Positions 1,553 to 10,349 of a DNA stretch of 64,000 nucleotides are shown piece by piece; position 1 is the stretch's first letter; the number at the start of each line of letters is the position of its first letter. The notes below the pieces were generated by a model. That model saw only the letters and a program-made list of their open reading frames with translations, did no database searches and was not told the origin of the DNA. Origin of the DNA: Escherichia phage TrudiRoth; the sequence record MZ501109. The stretch is one strand, 5' to 3'. Both the position numbers and the translations under genes were made by a program.

Positions 1553-4112
1553 CTAAAATCCTTTTCACATTATCCAGATCTTTACATACAGCAATAAACT
1601 TATCATCCTTGTACTTGCTGTGGTCTGGATGCTCTTTATCCATTGCAGCTAACTTCTTATACTCGAAATCTGCATCGAGTAATACACCCTTAACATAACG
1701 AGTATACTCATCATCATCAATACAAGCGATTGATGGGTGCTGTTTCTTCATCTTACCACAAGAGTAGTCACGAGAACCACCTTTCTCGGAATCAGAATCA
1801 ATACCGATTGGGCAGCCAGGGATACTAATACCACGATCCTTCTGGATGCTACGAATCAGAATCTCGTTATACTGATCGATCAGATCTTCACGTACAATGG
1901 CAACCACGGAGTCGTGAACCAACATGACGATCTTCATCTCTTTTCCTAGACCCAGTGACAGGATTTCTTCATCAGCATCAATAGCACCTAACAACAGGCT
2001 ATCAGAAGATGCAGACTGAATGATTGCGTTAAATCCAGAACGGATTTCTTCACCCTGAACACCACGATCTTCGGAATGGATGTTGTGCAGACGACGCTTA
2101 CGACCAAAGTGACTATAGATGAATCCAAAGTTCTTGATCTGATCGTGGCACTTATCAATCCAACGCTTAAGCTGAGGGAACTGACCGAAGTAAGTTTCGA
2201 TATAGTCCTTAGCATCTGCAACGGTACATTCAACAAACGGTTCGCCTGTCTTAGCAGCCTGTTCCAGAAGAGCTTCGTTAACAGAATGAGCTACTTTCGC
2301 TGGGCCAGAACCATACAGAATACCGAAGGTAATTGCCTTAGCAGCTTGACGCAGAGCTGGGAACAATTTCTTAACATCACGCGGTTCACAGGTCAGTTTA
2401 AATACCATGTGTGCGATGTTAGAGTGGAAGTCAGGGTATTTATCCGGCTCATTCTTCATGTTGATAAATACTTGTTGCATGTTTCTGTCACCAGACAGTA
2501 CAGCAGCGTAATAAACTTCCGCAGTTGTTAAGTCCCATGCGATTACACGGTATCCCGGAGGAGCTACTACACAACCCTTGATAATAGATTCATCACGTGG
2601 TAACTGTTGCAGGTTCAGCTTACCAGAAGAACTCAGACGACCAGAAGTAGTCATATGTTCATGGAAACCAGTACGAATGCAACCATCTGCATCGATGCTC
2701 AGAAGAATCTTCTCAACATAAGTAGAGATCAGCTTAGTCAGCTTACGAATCTCTAGCAGAGTTTTCGCAATCGGGTGCTGAGTAGCCAATTCATTCAGAG
2801 CTTCTGCGTTTGTAGAATCTGCACCTGTATCCGTCAATTTACCCGTTGGAGTCAAACCAACATAATCAAACAGAAGAACACGGAGTTGCTTAACAGAGTT
2901 CGGGTTAAACGCTTCGTTCTGATTCTTCTCCAGCTGAACGACTTCTGGATAAGTATACAGCTTCTCACGAGCCATATTTAATCGATGTGTCAACTGATAC
3001 TGAGCTTCTTTCAAGCGATCAACGGAAATCGGTACACCACGATCTTCAACACGTTGCAGGAATACACAACCAGGCATCAGAACTTCGTAGTATAGACTGC
3101 AAAGCTTTTCGTTCTTCTCAATTTTTGGTAAGAAGAAGTTATGCAGACGCAGAGTAGCATCGGTATCTTTTGCAGCATATGGCCACATAATATCAAAAGG
3201 AATCAGATCATAGCTGAAATCCTCTTTTTTGATCTTATGTGCCTTGCAATAATCATCCTTGAACTTATCCAGTTCAAAGTCATAGTCACCCATGTCAGTG
3301 TACTTCATAGCCAGAGATTTCAAGCCGTGAGTACCACGACGTTCATCGAGAACATAGTGTTGTAACATGGTATCGTGAAGTCTACGCTCTTTATGTGCTT
3401 TCTCGAAGGAAAGTCCTAGATGATAGGAGTAAAAGTGCATATCGAACTTCAAGTTATGAAAAACGATCTGATGATTCTTGCTATCCAGAATTTTCTGGAG
3501 ATAATGTACAGCTACTTCGGTGATGCTGTCAGAGTCAATATAGACACCCTGATACTCTTGGTGAGACATAGAAACACCAAGAAGATAACCATCACGAGCA
3601 TACAGAGCTGAGGTTTCGGAGTCGAATGCGATAGGTCCGATAACCATATTATACACCATCTTGATGTATTCTTCAGCTTCATCTGGATCAGTAATAGGAC
3701 GATAATCACCAGCTTTTGCAATCTTCTCACGACCATTAATAATGTCATGAATACTTTCAACAGTAGCATCGAAAACTGGTTTCATTTCAGGTTTAAAGTG
3801 TAGCTGAGCTGGACTAATACTTGCAATCCAGTTGGCATAGCCACCATGCTCTACACGTTTACCAGTATAATCACCTATACCTTTCTTACCTGCGAAATAC
3901 AGGAAAGGTTCAGCACCGACTAGCACAACAAAATCGTAATCGTTCGGATCGAACGGGTTATCTGGAGTTCCGATTGTAATATGCTTTTTCAGCAAACGAC
4001 CAGATAACTTCTCGTTACACATATGGAATACATCAACTTCCTCACCATAAAGCTGGAAGTGTTTATCATAACGAGTGTTATTTAGAGCTTTATCAACTAC
4101 TGCAATTTTCAA
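1545..4112 (-). CDS. DNA polymerase, family A (855 aa), with N-terminal 3'-5' exonuclease region
   Basis: Pol A motif B RQAAKAITFGILYG and motif C MLVHDS; 855 aa matches the size I recall for T5 DNA polymerase. Confidence 0.85.
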   Translation of the reverse strand: MKIAVVDKALNNTRYDKHFQLYGEEVDVFHMCNEKLSGRLLKKHITIGTPDNPFDPNDYDFVVLVGAEPFLYFAGKKGIGDYTGKRVEHGGYANWIASISPAQLHFKPEMKPVFDATVESIHDIINGREKIAKAGDYRPITDPDEAEEYIKMVYNMVIGPIAFDSETSALYARDGYLLGVSMSHQEYQGVYIDSDSITEVAVHYLQKILDSKNHQIVFHNLKFDMHFYSYHLGLSFEKAHKERRLHDTMLQHYVLDERRGTHGLKSLAMKYTDMGDYDFELDKFKDDYCKAHKIKKEDFSYDLIPFDIMWPYAAKDTDATLRLHNFFLPKIEKNEKLCSLYYEVLMPGCVFLQRVEDRGVPISVDRLKEAQYQLTHRLNMAREKLYTYPEVVQLEKNQNEAFNPNSVKQLRVLLFDYVGLTPTGKLTDTGADSTNAEALNELATQHPIAKTLLEIRKLTKLISTYVEKILLSIDADGCIRTGFHEHMTTSGRLSSSGKLNLQQLPRDESIIKGCVVAPPGYRVIAWDLTTAEVYYAAVLSGDRNMQQVFINMKNEPDKYPDFHSNIAHMVFKLTCEPRDVKKLFPALRQAAKAITFGILYGSGPAKVAHSVNEALLEQAAKTGEPFVECTVADAKDYIETYFGQFPQLKRWIDKCHDQIKNFGFIYSHFGRKRRLHNIHSEDRGVQGEEIRSGFNAIIQSASSDSLLLGAIDADEEILSLGLGKEMKIVMLVHDSVVAIVREDLIDQYNEILIRSIQKDRGISIPGCPIGIDSDSEKGGSRDYSCGKMKKQHPSIACIDDDEYTRYVKGVLLDADFEYKKLAAMDKEHPDHSKYKDDKFIAVCKDLDNVKRILGA

Positions 4113-4174
4113 ATTTAGTCTCCTTTTGGTAAGTAAGTATAACTTCAGTGTTTCTTCTCTAACTTACCAATATA

Positions 4175-5065
4175 TTATACCAAATCTTTGAGCGATTCGG
4201 CAACTAAAATTTCAATACGTTGAGCCAACATATCGATCTCTTCTTTATTTAAATCACCTGGGTCTTTACCTTCTGGAAGAAGGAAGTTACCAACTACAGG
4301 TGTTAAACGTGTTTTTGTACGAATTAGCTTCGCTAGTGCTTGAGCAGCTTTATTACCAGAGGCATCATTATCTAGCAAGATAACAACTACTCTTACTCCA
4401 GCAATAATGTAAGGACTGAACTTATCAGCAATGTTATCAGATGTAAACTGATGTGTACCAAAGCAGCAAGAAGCATAATCCACACCGTTGTCTTCTAGAT
4501 TTAACATATCAAAGATACCTTCAACTAGAACAAGAACTGGTGTATTATATCGTACGGGGAAAATCGGTGGTGAAACTTGTTTTGGTTTTACTAAGTATTT
4601 AGGAGGGGCAGAACTGTTTATAGAACGTCCCAGGAATAGGATATTGCGTCCAACAGCATCTGTTATTGGGAATACAATTCTGCCTTCCCAGTCTGCTTGA
4701 TGTTGGAAAGCAAAATATTTCTTCAAGGTCTTAGAACTGATACCTCGGAAATCACCTTCGAAAAGGTAAGCAGATTCAGGAATTGCAAGATTCGTAGATC
4801 CATTCCTAATCTCTGAAATCTTTTTACGTACTTGTGACAATCTTGGTGACTGTCTGTACTGAGTCTCATTAAAATAATGGTAAATGCTCGGTATTCCTCT
4901 ACCGAAGCCACAGCTCAAGCAATGCATAATACCTGATTCAGGATCAATACGCAAGCTTGGGTGTTTATCATCATGATCTGGATTGAGACAACAGATGAGG
5001 ATGTCCCCACCTGTGTCTTTGTATTCAATGCCTTTCAGATCAAGTAGTTCTGTTATTCTACTCAT
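4175..5065 (-). CDS. DNA primase (zinc-finger + TOPRIM type)
   Basis: Zn-binding CLNPDHDDKHPSLRI...CLSCG and acidic TOPRIM-like LVLVEGIFDM / ILLDNDASG. Confidence 0.7.
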   Translation of the reverse strand: MSRITELLDLKGIEYKDTGGDILICCLNPDHDDKHPSLRIDPESGIMHCLSCGFGRGIPSIYHYFNETQYRQSPRLSQVRKKISEIRNGSTNLAIPESAYLFEGDFRGISSKTLKKYFAFQHQADWEGRIVFPITDAVGRNILFLGRSINSSAPPKYLVKPKQVSPPIFPVRYNTPVLVLVEGIFDMLNLEDNGVDYASCCFGTHQFTSDNIADKFSPYIIAGVRVVVILLDNDASGNKAAQALAKLIRTKTRLTPVVGNFLLPEGKDPGDLNKEEIDMLAQRIEILVAESLKDLV

Positions 5066-6616: not shown

Positions 6617-7384
6617 TTATTCAGCAGCCGCAGCTTTTGCATCCAGTTTAGCACGCTTAGCAGCACCATCATAGTCCTTAGCAACCAGACCACGACGAGA
6701 CAGCATAGATTTAACACCGCGCTCAGACTTACCAGTTTTCTCAGCGATCTCAGCAACAGTCATGTTAGCCAGATCCAGACCTTCTAACAGATCTTCACGA
6801 GTCTTAGCACTTGATGTTTCCTGTACCGGCATAGCAGCGATACGACCTTCACGAAGCAGGCTCAGAGCTTTACCACGGATCTGCTTAATATTACGACCGA
6901 AGTGAGCAGCGATAGCTTCAATAGTAGCACCAGCAACAACCTGATTAACGAAATCAGTTTCTTCGTCAGGAGTGAAGGAACGAACAGCAGCAGCTTTTTC
7001 AGTTGGCTTAACAGAAGCAGTCATTTCCAGACTCAGGATCTTACCCTGTACCTGCTTAGCACCGAACTGACCACCAGCTACAGCAGCAGCGATTTCAGCG
7101 TAAGTATACTGACCAGCATGAGCGTTCAGGAAATCAACCAGTTCAGCTTCCTGCTCAGGAGTCCACGGGGATTTCTGTACTTCGTTAGCTTTCTGTACTT
7201 CGAAACCTTCTTTACGCAGCTTAGAGCCAACAGAGCGAGCGGTAACGTCTTTACCAGTCTCGGTAGCCAGTTCAGCAGCGATAGCAGCTACTTGTTCTTG
7301 AGAGATTACAGCAACACCCAGAGCAGTGGCTTTTGCTTTCAGAGACTCGGTTACACCTTCTACGTTCCAGTTCAGTTTAGACAT
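6617..7384 (-). CDS. abundant Ala-rich DNA-binding protein (255 aa), possibly the T5 D5-type DNA-binding protein
   Basis: Strong host-like high-expression codon usage (cgt/ctg/ggt/gct), repeated HTH-like segments, own terminator; size consistent with ~29 kDa. Confidence 0.45.
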   Translation of the reverse strand: MSKLNWNVEGVTESLKAKATALGVAVISQEQVAAIAAELATETGKDVTARSVGSKLRKEGFEVQKANEVQKSPWTPEQEAELVDFLNAHAGQYTYAEIAAAVAGGQFGAKQVQGKILSLEMTASVKPTEKAAAVRSFTPDEETDFVNQVVAGATIEAIAAHFGRNIKQIRGKALSLLREGRIAAMPVQETSSAKTREDLLEGLDLANMTVAEIAEKTGKSERGVKSMLSRRGLVAKDYDGAAKRAKLDAKAAAAE

Positions 7385-8159
7385 TATTATTTTTCTCCAA
7401 TAGTTCTTTAATCGACAGGATTTCTATCCCATTCGTTTCGGCTTTCTTATAAGATGAGGAAGAACGTTTTGATTCATCCTCACAGATTAGGTATTTGACG
7501 TCTTTGGTAACGGACTTCTTAACCGTATATCCTAGACTTTCTAAATAGTTTGTTGCATCCGTTCGATTTGCAAAATCTTGCAAAGATCCGGTAATACAGA
7601 CCGTGATTTCATTTGGTTGGGCAACTAAATCATCTGTAATGATGATATCAGCTTTAGTACCTCGAATACCAGTTGAGAATTTCCACGGTAATTCAATAAC
7701 ATCCTTGCCTTGTGGGGAATTTAGCCAGGTTTTGTAATTTTCTCCAGCCTTGCCGTCAGCCTTCACATCGTAGAAGCTAGTGCAATTTTGGGACAGTTTC
7801 TTTGCTGCAACCTCTCCAATAAGAGGAATTCCTAAAGAACCTAGAACTGAACCAAAGTCAATGTCTCCGCGAACCTTAGTATTTAACTCGCTAATCAACT
7901 TAGTGGCAACCTTGCTACCCACAGCTCCGACCAAATCTTCTTCGGTCAGGTAAAACAGTTCTGAGATCTTAGTCAGTTCCAGCTTCTCAATAGTTTTCGG
8001 GCCAAAGCCCTTTAACTTCATTTTTGTGCAGAAGTTCTCGATTAACTTACTTGATTGCGCTGGACAGTTGGACTTATTCCTACAGAATAATTGCCCGTTG
8101 ACAAGATCTAGCTTAGAACCACAAGAGGGACATTGTGTTGGAATTTCGATTTTCATCAA
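7377..8159 (-). CDS. NAD-dependent DNA ligase, C-terminal portion (Zn finger, HhH, BRCT)
   Basis: Begins with CPSCGSKL...C...C zinc finger, followed by HhH-like and BRCT-like segments. Confidence 0.8.
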   Translation of the reverse strand: MMKIEIPTQCPSCGSKLDLVNGQLFCRNKSNCPAQSSKLIENFCTKMKLKGFGPKTIEKLELTKISELFYLTEEDLVGAVGSKVATKLISELNTKVRGDIDFGSVLGSLGIPLIGEVAAKKLSQNCTSFYDVKADGKAGENYKTWLNSPQGKDVIELPWKFSTGIRGTKADIIITDDLVAQPNEITVCITGSLQDFANRTDATNYLESLGYTVKKSVTKDVKYLICEDESKRSSSSYKKAETNGIEILSIKELLEKNNNV

Positions 8160-8327
8160 ATTTCTTCCTTATCAATTTATATAAATATTATAGCAAGTAT
8201 TTAAGCATTTAGCAACTACAATTTTAACTAACTTTGCTTACCATCGCCATAACTTTCTATCCCTCAACTGAATGATAATAGTATATACCTAAGCGGCGAA
8301 AATGTCAATAGCTACTTTATAATTTTA

Positions 8328-8522
8328 CTATGGAGAACGGGCAAATTTACTATACGCACATTCATATCCTAGGGGTGTTAACATAATGTACACATTTCCT
8401 AGCTGCTTTTCCTTTGCTAGGCCAAGCTCTATAAGAGAAGTATAGTCACCAAGCATATCCCATACTTTAGTGGGACCATTCCAAAATAATTTCTCTAGTG
8501 CCTCGAGCATACTGCTATTCAT
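8328..8522 (-). CDS. hypothetical 64-aa ORF inside the spacer between the two ligase ORFs
   Basis: ORF track only; no recognisable motif. Confidence 0.3.
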   Translation of the reverse strand: MNSSMLEALEKLFWNGPTKVWDMLGDYTSLIELGLAKEKQLGNVYIMLTPLGYECAYSKFARSP

Positions 8523-9486
8523 AAACTCGCTCCACGATACAAGGTATTACACCACCAGCACGAATCACTCGAATCTGGCAACCGATCTCTAAATCGAGAG
8601 CGTTAATATAATCAACGTTATTAAGAGTTGCTTTAACAATTGTGGCATCATCAATAATCACCGGCTCGAAATAACCAACTGGAGTTACTTTACCAGAAGC
8701 CCCTACTTGCCATTCAACTTTAACAAGTGTGGTAATTTCGCCTTCTTCATCCTCTTTAATAGCAAATGCACCACGAGGAAATTTATTAGTCCAACCTTCA
8801 CGGAAGAATTTATTGTTGTCGTTAATGCGAACAACTTTACCATCTGTCGGAATCCATTTAAAGAAGGAACGAACATTAATAACTGTCAAGAAGTTCTCAT
8901 TCTCTAGCCAAAGCATATCTTTTAAATAGGCTTCTGTAATACCGACTGTTTCCGCTGAACACTGGATACCATATGCAACGAAGATTAAACCACCTTCACC
9001 AATACGTTGGATGAAATCATCGCTGTCTTTCAGGTTAATAGCACCTGAAGCGTAGTTACGCTTGTTCTCTACTTCTTTAGTAATGAGAACTTCACCAGTG
9101 ATTTGAGTTGGTACTTTTTGGGAAATAGTTTTGGGGATGTTCAGCATTTTAACATTATGCGTTACATCATTCCCTAGAATACCGTTACCACGAGTTAATG
9201 CTTGAACAAATTCACCATTAATATATAATAGAGAAATCGCACAACCATCTAACTTATCAGTTTCAACCTGACCTAATGGATTGAATGGAGCTTTATCACC
9301 ACGACCGTAATAGACTTTCTGCAAAGAATACATACGATACAAATGAGGAATATCACCTTTCGGTCCGATTTCTTCCTCTAGAGGGAATCTTTTAATCAGA
9401 CGATCATATTCTTCATCGGAAATAAGACTCATTCCCTGGTAGTACGCTTCTTGACAACGTTTGATAAAGTCTTTTACATTATTCAT
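8515..9486 (-). CDS. NAD-dependent DNA ligase, N-terminal portion (adenylation domain + OB fold)
   Basis: Ligase KxDG motif ETDKLDGCAIS; OB-fold end ...VIRAGGVIPCIVERV. Confidence 0.85.
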   Translation of the reverse strand: MNNVKDFIKRCQEAYYQGMSLISDEEYDRLIKRFPLEEEIGPKGDIPHLYRMYSLQKVYYGRGDKAPFNPLGQVETDKLDGCAISLLYINGEFVQALTRGNGILGNDVTHNVKMLNIPKTISQKVPTQITGEVLITKEVENKRNYASGAINLKDSDDFIQRIGEGGLIFVAYGIQCSAETVGITEAYLKDMLWLENENFLTVINVRSFFKWIPTDGKVVRINDNNKFFREGWTNKFPRGAFAIKEDEEGEITTLVKVEWQVGASGKVTPVGYFEPVIIDDATIVKATLNNVDYINALDLEIGCQIRVIRAGGVIPCIVERVYE

Positions 9487-9682
9487 CGTCTGTGATTTCC
9501 ATTTTGAGTTCTTTATTATACTGAGCAGCCATACCAGCCATACCAGCTAAATCAGCAGCTTCTTTCAACCACGCATCTTTGCACGCTTTCTGGTTTGGAA
9601 TGCCGATACTATCCTGATAGTTGATTCTTGCTATGGAGGGCAAATTAAATTTTGCTTGAATCTTTGGAAGTGTTATTGCCAT
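9479..9682 (-). CDS. hypothetical protein (67 aa)
   Basis: ORF track, operon context. Confidence 0.45.
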   Translation of the reverse strand: MAITLPKIQAKFNLPSIARINYQDSIGIPNQKACKDAWLKEAADLAGMAGMAAQYNKELKMEITDDE

Positions 9683-9970
9683 TTACTGTACCTCATATGC
9701 TTTAGGCTGAATAGTATCCCCCTGCCATGTAAAGTTCTTACATAAGCAAAGATAGGTAGTCCTTCCCACTCTTTGAGTTATTGGAGAGTAAATATCAGCA
9801 ACTAATGTGTTTGCTTCGTAAGCGAGAGATATAAGTTTATATCCCTGTCGAACCATACGTACCTTCTCTCCATTGAGCTTTTCTTCCCAGGAAAGAACTA
9901 AAGACTGTCCTATGTACGGTAAAGGTTTGAGTGGACTTATTTTTATCTTTTTCATATTCACCCCTCTCAT
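9683..9970 (-). CDS. hypothetical protein (95 aa)
   Basis: ORF track; canonical minus-strand promoter immediately upstream. Confidence 0.55.
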   Translation of the reverse strand: MRGVNMKKIKISPLKPLPYIGQSLVLSWEEKLNGEKVRMVRQGYKLISLAYEANTLVADIYSPITQRVGRTTYLCLCKNFTWQGDTIQPKAYEVQ

Positions 9971-10022: not shown

Positions 10023-10056
10023 TAAAGAAAAAGCCAAGAACTAGGCATTCTTGGCT
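10023..10056 (-). terminator. Rho-independent terminator
   Basis: 9-bp stem agccaagaa/ttcttggct followed by U-tract on minus strand. Confidence 0.6.
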
Positions 10057-10349
10057 TTGAGTTCTTCAGCTCGTTTCTGTACTTCATGCAAGACCTCTGA
10101 TTCACTGAGGATTTGCGTAAAAGCGTAGAATAGCTGTGATGTAGTTTCTAGGGTATAAGGAAAAGAGAAGCCTGATTTCGTTGGAAACCACTCTCCAGTA
10201 ATATCTTGGAGCCAGTAACGAATTCCCATGTATAGATTCCCACGAAATTCAGATACGGTTAGTCTTACTTGTTCCCCCTCCTTCTCCCAAAGCATGATGG
10301 ACTGGTCGTCAACGTGTCCTTCATAGTTTTGATTTACCTGATCGCTCAT
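10041..10349 (-). CDS. hypothetical protein (102 aa)
   Basis: ORF track. Confidence 0.55.
   Translation of the reverse strand: MSDQVNQNYEGHVDDQSIMLWEKEGEQVRLTVSEFRGNLYMGIRYWLQDITGEWFPTKSGFSFPYTLETTSQLFYAFTQILSESEVLHEVQKRAEELKAKNA

What the first reader, a model, noticed from the sequence alone, without database searches (positions are those of the whole stretch)
7377..9486. NAD-dependent DNA ligase encoded as two genes split between OB-fold and zinc finger
The adenylation/OB half (KxDG motif ETDKLDG) ends at 8515 and the Zn-finger/HhH/BRCT half starts with its own ATG at 8159, 355 bp downstream on the minus strand. The spacer holds only a 64-aa ORF with no motif, so this is not a simple frameshift. 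It may be a two-subunit ligase or the scar of an excised or decayed mobile element.
Basis: partly seen in the sequence, partly recalled or inferred. Interest (0 to 1): 0.5.

Follow-up and report, generated by a model that had tools for sequence, protein, structure and literature searches.

The report
Known two-subunit T5-type DNA ligase
This is the already-annotated two-gene NAD-dependent DNA ligase of T5-like phages, for which a relative's two-chain structure on nicked DNA has been solved; the gap between the genes holds a conserved pair of promoters plus a rare small gene of unknown function, so it is real but ordinary.

Summary
ligA (8515-9486, minus strand, 323 aa) encodes domain Ia, the adenylation domain and the OB fold. 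ligB (7377-8156, minus, 259 aa) encodes the Cys4 zinc finger, HhH and BRCT. The ligB ATG is at 8156, not 8159, so the gap is 358 nt. The break maps to the OB|Zn linker of E. coli LigA, and the catalytic, NMN-binding and zinc residues checked are almost all conserved.

This is not new. [quoted passage not shown] PDB 9hu3 and 9i5i, titled [quoted passage not shown] (released 2026), match both halves over full length. Every relative sampled down to about 35% LigB identity is split at the same point.

The spacer is not empty. It carries two strong sigma70 promoters, annotated in T5 as P-K28b and P-K28a. Among T5-type loci they are about 7-fold less variable than the flanking coding DNA.

The 64-aa ORF is an orphan insertion found in only 5 phages. 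It shows no nuclease or intein features. Homing endonuclease genes do occupy the same slot in a few relatives, so a mobile-element origin of the split is plausible but unproven.

The parts
8515..9486 (-). [quoted passage not shown]
   Evidence: Pfam DNA_ligase_aden 3.2e-23 and DNA_ligase_OB 8.2e-22. PHROG 3359 1.2e-175. phmmer to PDB 9hu3_A 2.4e-106. AF2 model (pLDDT 87.7) matches 9hu3_A/9i5i_A at TM 0.82-0.84. Catalytic and NMN-binding residues conserved.
8328..8522 (-). ORF64: 64-aa orphan ORF whose ATG overlaps the ligA stop (ATGAATAG). A lineage-specific insertion between ligA and the promoters; function unknown.
   Evidence: Present at 100% identity in only 5 phages: S132, 1-23, bastian, 8sent65, smaug. 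Absent from T5, beppo, misterkot and Gostya9. No Pfam or PHROG hit. Only itself found in 5.8e9 proteins. Against 1.84e9 representatives it found only itself plus two repeat-inflated hits. AF2 pLDDT 57.7 and no fold match.
8280..8308 (-). Upstream promoter of the tandem pair (homologue of T5 P-K28b): TTGACA-17 nt-TATACT
   Evidence: Promoter scan, 11/12. Identical sequence in T5, where NC_005859 annotates 'promoter P-K 28b' across it. Position conserved, with the -35 about 152-155 nt before the ligB ATG, in enteric and some Vibrio T5-like phages.
8187..8215 (-). Downstream promoter of the tandem pair (homologue of T5 P-K28a): TTGCTA-17 nt-TATAAT with extended-10 TG
   Evidence: Promoter scan, 10/12 plus TG. 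Annotated 'promoter P-K 28a' in T5. The -35 lies about 58-60 nt before the ligB ATG in nearly all enteric and Vibrio T5-like loci.
7377..8156 (-). ligB: NAD-dependent DNA ligase subunit B (Cys4 zinc finger C9/C12/C25/C31 + HhH + BRCT), 259 aa, with RBS AAGGAAG at 8170-8164
   Evidence: Pfam BRCT 4.4e-8; HHH_2 3.9e-4, below cutoff. PHROG 3498 9.4e-136. phmmer to 9hu3_B 'DNA ligase subunit B' 4e-79 and to E. coli LigA residues 402-529 and 585-666. Cys4 aligned to E. coli C408/C411/C426/C432.
6617..7384 (-). D5 DNA-binding protein gene. Its start overlaps the ligB stop by 8 nt, so it lies in the same transcription unit as ligB.
   Evidence: ORF list. Annotated D5 in 8sent65, beppo, misterkot, Gostya9 and T5 immediately after ligB.
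9479..9970 (-). Two small ORFs (95 aa at 9683-9970; 67 aa at 9479-9682) immediately upstream of ligA and overlapping its start. Variable cargo, present in beppo and absent from T5, 8sent65 and bastian.
   Evidence: (PHROG 35018 and 8267, unknown function).

Best explanation
The two ORFs are the two subunits of the T5-family heterodimeric NAD+-dependent DNA ligase.

LigA (domain Ia, nucleotidyltransferase, OB fold) is the catalytic core. It takes AMP from NAD+ onto Lys78 and transfers it to the 5' phosphate of the nick.

LigB (zinc finger, HhH, BRCT) is the DNA-binding half. In one-piece LigA this half closes the protein clamp around nicked duplex DNA. Here the two polypeptides assemble non-covalently on the nick, as in the solved PR1 phage enzyme.

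The gene is cut exactly in the flexible OB|Zn linker. The split is ancient and fixed throughout the T5 family (Demerecviridae).

The gap is a conserved regulatory region. Two tandem strong sigma70 early promoters (T5 P-K28b/P-K28a) start the ligB-D5-helicase transcription unit. ligA belongs to the unit upstream, and no terminator-like site separates the two.

The stretch between the ligA stop codon and these promoters is a slot that collects accessory genes. In this window it holds an orphan 64-aa ORF of unknown function that is not needed for the ligase.

Shown here: domain content, breakpoint, residue conservation, homology to both PR1 chains, family-wide split, promoter conservation, rarity of ORF64.

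Inferred: heterodimer formation and nick sealing by these particular proteins, promoter activity in this phage, and read-through from ligA into ligB.
For: - Domains.
- Breakpoint: LigA residue 321 aligns to E. coli residue 390 and LigB residue 3 to residue 402.
- Conserved residues: K78, D80, G81, R99, E132, R143, D215, G216, K244; domain Ia Y15, Y16, D24, Y27, D28; Cys4.
- Full-length matches to PDB 9hu3/9i5i chain A (2.4e-106) and chain B 'DNA ligase subunit B' (4e-79). Entry titles read 'PR1 phage heterodimeric DNA ligase in complex with 21-mer nicked DNA', released 2026-01-14 and 2026-02-18. The LigA model matches at TM 0.82-0.84.
- The chain B sequence is 100% identical to a translated stretch of Providencia phage PSTCR5, a T5-like phage.
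- Annotated 'subunit A/B' in T5 and hundreds of other records.
- The top 120 LigA homologues, down to 47% identity, are almost all 310-337 aa (one partial, 240 aa).
- All IMG/VR loci in which both halves were found and LigB identity is 35% or more are split at the same point. Apart from L074, loci at 32% or less that contain both halves are fused.
- Promoters. Variable columns are 4.7% in the promoter spacer against 36% in ligA and 34% in ligB.
- No terminator-like site on the minus strand between ligA and ligB.
Against: - No biochemical data exist for this phage's proteins. Heterodimer formation is inferred from 54-60% identical homologues.
- No paper describing the PR1 work was found in the searchable library, so only the PDB entry titles are available.
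- Some residues that I recall as contributing in E. coli LigA differ: R208->N, R277->I, K290->R, R333->A. The HhH region is shorter than in E. coli, and its Pfam hit is below the gathering cutoff.
- Promoter activity is inferred from consensus matches, conservation and the T5 record annotation. It was not measured here.
Confidence: 0.9

Rival explanations
1. The split is the footprint of a mobile element. A free-standing homing endonuclease gene, or an intron carrying one, inserted into the OB|Zn linker of a one-piece ligase gene. The two pieces stayed functional, the endonuclease was later lost or replaced, and ORF64 or the spacer is what remains. This concerns origin, so it does not exclude the best explanation.
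For: - Salmonella phage SP3 and one relative carry a GIY-YIG endonuclease gene (Pfam 1.1e-5) in exactly the slot where ORF64 sits, starting with the same ATGAATAG overlap with the ligA stop.
- A distant ligase on a 618-kb contig (L074) is independently split at the same linker, with a TnsA-like/NUMOD3 endonuclease ORF between the halves.
- From my own knowledge, comparable 'genes in pieces' are described for T4-like phages, for example Aeh1 nrdA split by mobE.
Against: - ORF64 has no nuclease motif and no detectable similarity to the SP3 endonuclease at DNA or protein level. It has no homologues at all.
- Endonucleases occupy the gap in only 2 of about 436 T5-type records, so they look like secondary arrivals at an existing intergenic site.
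- Other lineages hold unrelated cargo in the gap: DprA-like, NADAR and radical-SAM genes.
- The most conserved content of the gap is promoters, not element remnants.
- No fused close relative was found that would allow the event to be dated.
Confidence: 0.25
2. The two ORFs are a broken gene: a pseudogene, a frameshift or an assembly error in a single ligase gene.
For: Only the bare fact that one-piece LigA is the norm in bacteria and in many other phages.
Against: - A 358-nt gap with promoters and an RBS-ATG for ligB cannot be closed by a frame correction.
- The same layout occurs in more than 400 independently sequenced genomes and across all sampled subfamilies.
- Both halves keep their functional residues.
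- A homologous two-chain enzyme has been crystallised on DNA.
Confidence: 0.01
3. The halves are rejoined after expression, either by protein trans-splicing through a split intein or by RNA splicing of an intron in the spacer.
For: None found.
Against: - LigA ends 2-3 residues after the last OB-fold residue that aligns with E. coli. LigB begins 2 residues before the zinc-finger alignment. No roughly 100-aa N-intein or 35-aa C-intein sequence can fit.
- Rfam at E<=1 finds no intron or any other RNA family in 7900-8800.
- The T5-type spacer is 202 bp and is filled by two promoters.
- The PDB entries hold two separate chains.
Confidence: 0.01
4. ORF64 is a functional accessory factor of the ligase, for example an adaptor or regulator of LigA-LigB assembly, rather than neutral cargo.
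For: - Its start is translationally coupled to the ligA stop, with a GGAG 8 nt upstream.
- The insertion spares the promoter exactly: the ORF's stop lies 19 nt before the -35 element.
Against: - It is present in only 5 of more than 450 related phages, all copies 100% identical, so nothing can be said about selection on it.
- The ligase family works without it, including PR1 and T5.
- It has no homologues and no confident fold.
Confidence: 0.05

Closest known systems
T5 LigA/LigB (T5.116/T5.117, YP_006944/YP_006945) and the PR1 phage heterodimeric NAD+ DNA ligase (PDB 9hu3, 9i5i)
   Same: Same two-gene layout and same breakpoint. Same synteny: PC4-like regulator, ligA, tandem promoters, ligB, D5, DnaB-like helicase. 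The window proteins are 95% identical to T5 LigA and LigB, and 54-60% identical to the PR1-type chains over full length.
   Different: This window has an extra 64-aa ORF between ligA and the promoters, which makes the gap 358 nt instead of 202 nt. It also has two extra small ORFs upstream of ligA.
One-piece bacterial LigA (E. coli LigA, PDB 2owo; T. filiformis 1dgs/1v9p)
   Same: Same order of six modules: Ia, NTase, OB, Zn, HhH, BRCT. Same motif I lysine, the same Cys4 and the same NMN-binding residues (one conservative change, H23->Y). About 27-29% identity.
   Different: The phage enzyme is two polypeptides cut in the OB|Zn linker. It is more compact, 582 aa in total against 671. It has deletions after domain Ia and within the NTase domain, and a shortened HhH region.
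Phage 'genes in pieces' made by free-standing homing endonucleases (Aeh1 nrdA/mobE; the split T4 topoisomerase large subunit). Recalled from my own knowledge, not tested here.
   Same: An essential replication enzyme is encoded as two adjacent co-oriented genes cut at a domain boundary. Endonuclease genes are found in the same gap in some relatives (SP3, L074).
   Different: In this window, and in most of the family, no endonuclease is present. The gap is a conserved promoter region instead.

Membership tests
NAD+-dependent DNA ligase (LigA family, EC 6.5.1.2) | Nucleotidyltransferase domain with the motif I KxDG lysine and motifs III, IV and V | tested here: met
   Pfam PF01653 3.2e-23. K78, D80, G81, E132, D215, G216 and K244 align with E. 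coli K115, D117, G118, E173, D285, G286 and K314. The E. coli residue list is from my own knowledge.
NAD+-dependent DNA ligase (LigA family, EC 6.5.1.2) | N-terminal domain Ia with NMN-binding residues (the feature that marks NAD+ rather than ATP use) | tested here: met
   Y15, Y16, D24, Y27 and D28 align with E. coli Y22, H23, D32, Y35 and D36.
NAD+-dependent DNA ligase (LigA family, EC 6.5.1.2) | OB-fold domain following the NTase domain | tested here: met
   Pfam PF03120 8.2e-22, residues 252-321. Aligns to E. coli 284-390.
NAD+-dependent DNA ligase (LigA family, EC 6.5.1.2) | Cys4 zinc finger, HhH domain and BRCT domain | tested here: met
   LigB C9, C12, C25 and C31 align with E. coli C408, C411, C426 and C432. 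phmmer to E. coli LigA 402-529 (HhH) and 585-666 (BRCT), 8e-11. BRCT PF00533 4.4e-8. HHH_2 is weak at 21 bits against a cutoff of 27.
NAD+-dependent DNA ligase (LigA family, EC 6.5.1.2) | All six modules in one polypeptide | tested here: not met
   Two ORFs separated by 358 nt. This is the defining difference of the T5-type variant.
NAD+-dependent DNA ligase (LigA family, EC 6.5.1.2) | NAD+-dependent nick-sealing activity | not testable with these tools
   Requires an enzyme assay.
T5-type heterodimeric ligase (LigA+LigB; PDB 9hu3/9i5i) | Full-length homology of each ORF to the corresponding chain | tested here: met
   Chain A 2.4e-106, query residues 4-321. Chain B 4e-79, query residues 1-255.
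T5-type heterodimeric ligase (LigA+LigB; PDB 9hu3/9i5i) | Break at the OB|Zn linker, with separate start and stop codons | tested here: met
   The same breakpoint is seen in all split loci.
T5-type heterodimeric ligase (LigA+LigB; PDB 9hu3/9i5i) | Fold of subunit A matches the solved chain | tested here: met
   AF2 model, pLDDT 87.7. Foldseek E 2e-43, TM 0.82-0.84.
T5-type heterodimeric ligase (LigA+LigB; PDB 9hu3/9i5i) | Conserved synteny: ligA, promoter(s), ligB, D5, DnaB-like helicase | tested here: met
T5-type heterodimeric ligase (LigA+LigB; PDB 9hu3/9i5i) | The two chains form a complex on nicked DNA | not testable with these tools
   Inferred from the homologue's PDB entry titles. No complex was modelled here.
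Split-intein (trans-splicing) gene pair | N-intein at the C-terminus of the first product and C-intein at the N-terminus of the second | tested here: not met
   LigA ends at the OB-fold boundary and LigB starts 2 residues before the Zn-finger alignment. No intein Pfam hit.
Intron-interrupted phage gene (group I/II intron) | Structured self-splicing RNA between the exons | tested here: not met
   No Rfam match at E<=1 in 7900-8800. The conserved 172-nt part of the spacer carries two promoters and the ligB RBS.
Gene split by a resident free-standing homing endonuclease | Endonuclease gene (GIY-YIG, HNH, LAGLIDADG and similar) between the halves | tested here: not met
   ORF64 has no nuclease domain and no similarity to the SP3 GIY-YIG gene. 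The feature is met in relatives SP3 and L074, not in this window.

The most novel reading that the evidence does not exclude
The ligA-ligB junction is more than an old break. It is a conserved, promoter-bearing docking slot, placed directly after the ligA stop codon, that repeatedly captures homing endonucleases and accessory genes. The family-wide split itself began as an endonuclease insertion into the OB|Zn linker, as is still visible in the independently split ligase on the 618-kb contig. Separate strong promoters for ligB then allow the phage to set the dose of the DNA-clamping subunit independently of the catalytic subunit, possibly to control which nicks in the naturally nicked T5-type genome are sealed. 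ORF64 would be a young orphan gene recruited into this slot.
Probability: 0.12. Interest if true: 0.45.

Novelty: already known. Interest (0 to 1): 0.12.

Why it matters
It matters mainly as a correction. The split ligase is a textbook feature of the T5 family. It has been annotated as subunits A and B since the T5 genome records, and a two-chain homologue is now in the PDB, so the finding needs no further discovery effort.

Three smaller points came out of the check:
- The gap is one of the most conserved non-coding stretches around, because it carries the classic T5 early promoters P-K28b/a.
- The few bases between the ligA stop and these promoters are a recurrent insertion slot. Different phages hold an orphan ORF, a GIY-YIG endonuclease, or DprA-like, NADAR or radical-SAM genes there.
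- An unrelated very large phage-like contig has the same linker split, with an endonuclease still in place. That would be a useful comparison for anyone studying how essential enzymes tolerate being cut into pieces.

Tried and rejected
- Frameshift or sequencing error: rejected. The gap is 358 nt, it contains promoters, and the layout recurs in more than 400 genomes.
- Intein: rejected. There is no spare sequence at either junction.
- Intron or other structured RNA in the spacer: Rfam at E<=1 found nothing.
- ORF64 as a decayed endonuclease: no Pfam or PHROG hit, and no DNA or protein similarity to the SP3 GIY-YIG gene.
- ORF64 homologues: the word-indexed search of 5.8e9 proteins found only itself. 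The exhaustive phmmer search of 1.84e9 representatives gave two extra hits. Both are tandem-repeat proteins with summed weak matches and no shared domain, so I judged them spurious.
- ORF64 structure: the single-sequence AF2 model is low confidence (pLDDT 57.7) and Foldseek against the PDB gave nothing below E=0.9.
- Literature: six searches for a paper on the T5 or PR1 heterodimeric ligase, and one for the P-K28 promoters, found none. The one relevant paper found only lists ligA and ligB as T5 genes (PMC3632103).
- Close fused relatives that could date the split: none found.
- Group I intron in the L074 gap: no Rfam hit.
Full report
**1. What is in the sequence**

On the minus strand, ORF 8515..9486 encodes 323 aa and contains ETDKLDG. 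ORF 7377..8159 encodes a protein that begins (M)MKIEIPTQCPSCGS.

Pfam assigns the first ORF the NAD-ligase adenylation domain (3.2e-23) and the OB domain (8.2e-22). It assigns the second a BRCT domain (4.4e-8) and a sub-threshold HhH hit.

- 8159-8157 is TTG. The ATG is at 8156-8154, 7 nt after AAGGAAG. This start gives the 780-nt ligB annotated in T5.
- The gap is therefore 8157..8514, or 358 nt.
- The 64-aa ORF (8328..8522) starts inside the last codons of ligA (ATGAATAG overlap).
One is TTGACA-17-TATACT at 8308-8280. The other is TTGCTA-17-TATAAT, with an extended TG, at 8215-8187.

**2. Where the break lies**

I aligned the concatenated halves with E. coli LigA, which was fetched from NC_000913. 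The HMMER alignments to PDB chains agree with this alignment.
- LigA residue 321 corresponds to about E. coli residue 390, the end of the OB fold.
- LigB residue 3 corresponds to about residue 402, two residues before the first zinc cysteine.
- The cut therefore falls in the flexible OB|Zn linker.

Nearly all residues that I recall as essential in E. coli LigA are conserved:
- Nucleotidyltransferase: K115, D117, G118, R136, E173, R200, D285, G286 and K314 correspond to K78, D80, G81, R99, E132, R143, D215, G216 and K244.
- Domain Ia: Y22, H23, D32, Y35 and D36 correspond to Y15, Y16, D24, Y27 and D28.
- Zinc site: four cysteines, LigB C9, C12, C25 and C31.

The E. coli residue list is from my own knowledge. 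A few residues I recall as contributing differ: R208->N, R277->I, K290->R and R333->A. The HhH region is shorter than in E. coli. Neither junction has room for intein sequence.

**3. It is a known two-subunit enzyme**

The region is 97-98% identical to Epseptimavirus phages such as 8sent65 and beppo. [quoted passage not shown] A 2013 paper on T5 already lists ligA and ligB (AAU05253 and AAU05254) (PMC3632103).

Both window proteins match the two chains of PDB 9hu3/9i5i over full length. Chain A gives 2.4e-106. Chain B, named "DNA ligase subunit B", gives 4e-79.

An AlphaFold model of the window LigA (pLDDT 87.7) matches 9hu3_A and 9i5i_A at TM 0.82-0.84. The entry titles read [quoted passage not shown], one "containing phage nick sequence" and one "(random sequence)". 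They were released on 2026-01-14 and 2026-02-18. The chain B sequence is 100% identical to a translated stretch of Providencia phage PSTCR5, a T5-like phage.

I found no paper describing this work in the searchable library.

**4. How old and how general the split is**

The same layout is present in every lineage sampled:
- T5 (Tequintavirus)
- My1 (Mccorquodalevirinae)
- KpGranit (Sugarlandvirus)
- PSTCR5 (Priunavirus)
- Vibrio phages AG74 and 70E34-1a

The top 120 LigA homologues, down to 47% identity, are almost all 310-337 aa long; the one exception is a 240-aa partial sequence.

Among 79 IMG/VR loci recovered with a LigB profile, every locus in which both halves were found and LigB identity is 35% or more is split at the same point. 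Gaps range from 71 to 1374 bp. Four loci showed no ligA hit on that strand. Most loci at 32% identity or less that contain both halves have one-piece genes.

The exception is L074, a 618-kb contig. There a distant ligase (28-31% identity) is split at the same linker, with a TnsA-like/NUMOD3 endonuclease ORF between the halves. Rfam detects no intron there.

**5. What the gap really is**

The T5 RefSeq record annotates "promoter P-K 28b" and "promoter P-K 28a" in the 202-bp ligA-ligB spacer. The window's two promoter matches are the same sequences.

Among 27 T5-type loci, only 4.7% of columns vary in the last 170 bp of the spacer. The figures for ligA and ligB are 36% and 34%.

The tandem arrangement is kept in PSTCR5, My1 and KpGranit, although the sequence between the hexamers has diverged.

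In all 23 split loci scanned, the non-coding stretch directly upstream of ligB contains a site matching at least 10 of 12 consensus positions, usually 11-12. In enteric and most Vibrio members the -35 elements sit about 152-155 and 58-60 nt before the ATG. For each locus, 0-28 of 500 shuffles reached the observed best match. The loci are homologous, so they are not independent tests.

So ligB heads its own transcription unit (ligB, D5, DnaB-like helicase). ligA ends the unit upstream. No terminator-like site lies between them on the minus strand.

**6. The 64-aa ORF**

ORF64 is absent from T5, beppo, misterkot and Gostya9. In those phages ligA is followed by about 32 bp and then the promoter block. 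It is present, at 100% identity, in only five phages: S132, 1-23, bastian, 8sent65 and smaug.

The insertion lies between the ligA stop and the promoter. The ORF's last codons and its stop are built from ancestral spacer sequence, and its stop lies 19 nt before the -35 element.

Nothing identifies its function:
- No Pfam or PHROG match.
- No homologue among 5.8 billion clustered proteins.
- An exhaustive phmmer search gave only repeat-inflated spurious hits.
- The fold prediction is low confidence and has no structural neighbour.

I treat it as lineage-specific cargo of unknown function.

**7. Mobile-element idea**

Nothing in this window is recognisable as an endonuclease, an intein or an intron.

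The slot is nevertheless used by mobile genes elsewhere. Salmonella phage SP3 and one relative carry a GIY-YIG endonuclease gene there, starting with the same ATGAATAG overlap. L074 has an endonuclease in an independent split.

Other lineages carry unrelated cargo in the gap: DprA-like, NADAR and radical-SAM genes, and small unknown ORFs.

This makes an endonuclease-driven origin of the split plausible. It is equally consistent with later arrivals at an existing intergenic site, so I rate it at about 0.25 as an account of origin.

**8. Verdict**

The "two-subunit ligase" reading is right and already established. The "empty spacer" and "scar" reading is not supported.

Novelty: already known. 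Interest is low. The modest residual value lies in the promoter-bearing cargo slot and in the independently split ligase on the 618-kb contig.

Noticed in passing
L074 (IMGVR_UViG_3300022719_000283, 618,736-bp contig) 1976-4774: A distant NAD-ligase (28-31% identity to the window proteins) is independently split at the same OB|Zn linker. The A half aligns to E. coli LigA 5-387 and the B half to 384-669. A 274-aa TnsA-like/NUMOD3 endonuclease ORF (3123-3947) lies between the halves and overlaps the stop of the A half. Rfam finds no intron.
   Followed up: partly
L038 = Salmonella phage SP3 (NC_048001) 3199-3840; also phage vB_Sen_SG_WM_RUS_R2: A 213-aa GIY-YIG endonuclease gene sits between the ligA stop and the P-K28b promoter. 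This is the same slot as ORF64, with the same ATGAATAG start/stop overlap. Only 2 of about 436 T5-type records have it.
   Followed up: partly
window 8157-8327, and the equivalent 170 bp in L013-L043 and L060: The promoter-bearing part of the ligA-ligB spacer is far more conserved than the genes around it. Variable columns are 4.7% there, against 36% in ligA and 34% in ligB, across 27 T5-type loci.
   Followed up: yes
window 8224-8250 (-): A mini-ORF, ATG GCG ATG GTA AGC AAA GTT AGT TAA (MAMVSKVS), lies 9 nt after a GAGGGA in the leader between the two promoters. It is conserved in T5 and Epseptimavirus but not in KpGranit or PSTCR5, so it is probably incidental.
   Followed up: no
window 9479-9970 (-) and 10030-10058: Two small ORFs of unknown function (95 aa, PHROG 35018; 67 aa, PHROG 8267) lie between the PC4-like regulator gene and ligA. 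They are present in phage beppo and absent from T5, 8sent65 and bastian. A terminator-like hairpin (10058-10030) and a TTGCTT-17-TATAAT site lie just upstream of them. The window therefore combines a beppo-like upstream cargo with a bastian-like ORF64 insertion.
   Followed up: partly
L009 (Vibrio phage AG74) 1949-2844; L073 3153-3809; L050 564-1568: Other split-ligase lineages carry different genes in the ligA-ligB gap, always upstream of the ligB promoter. These are a DprA-like protein plus a 113-aa ORF (Vibrio Thalassavirus), a NADAR-domain protein, and a radical-SAM protein. In Pectobacterium phage My1 a gene annotated DprA-like sits upstream of ligA instead.
   Followed up: partly
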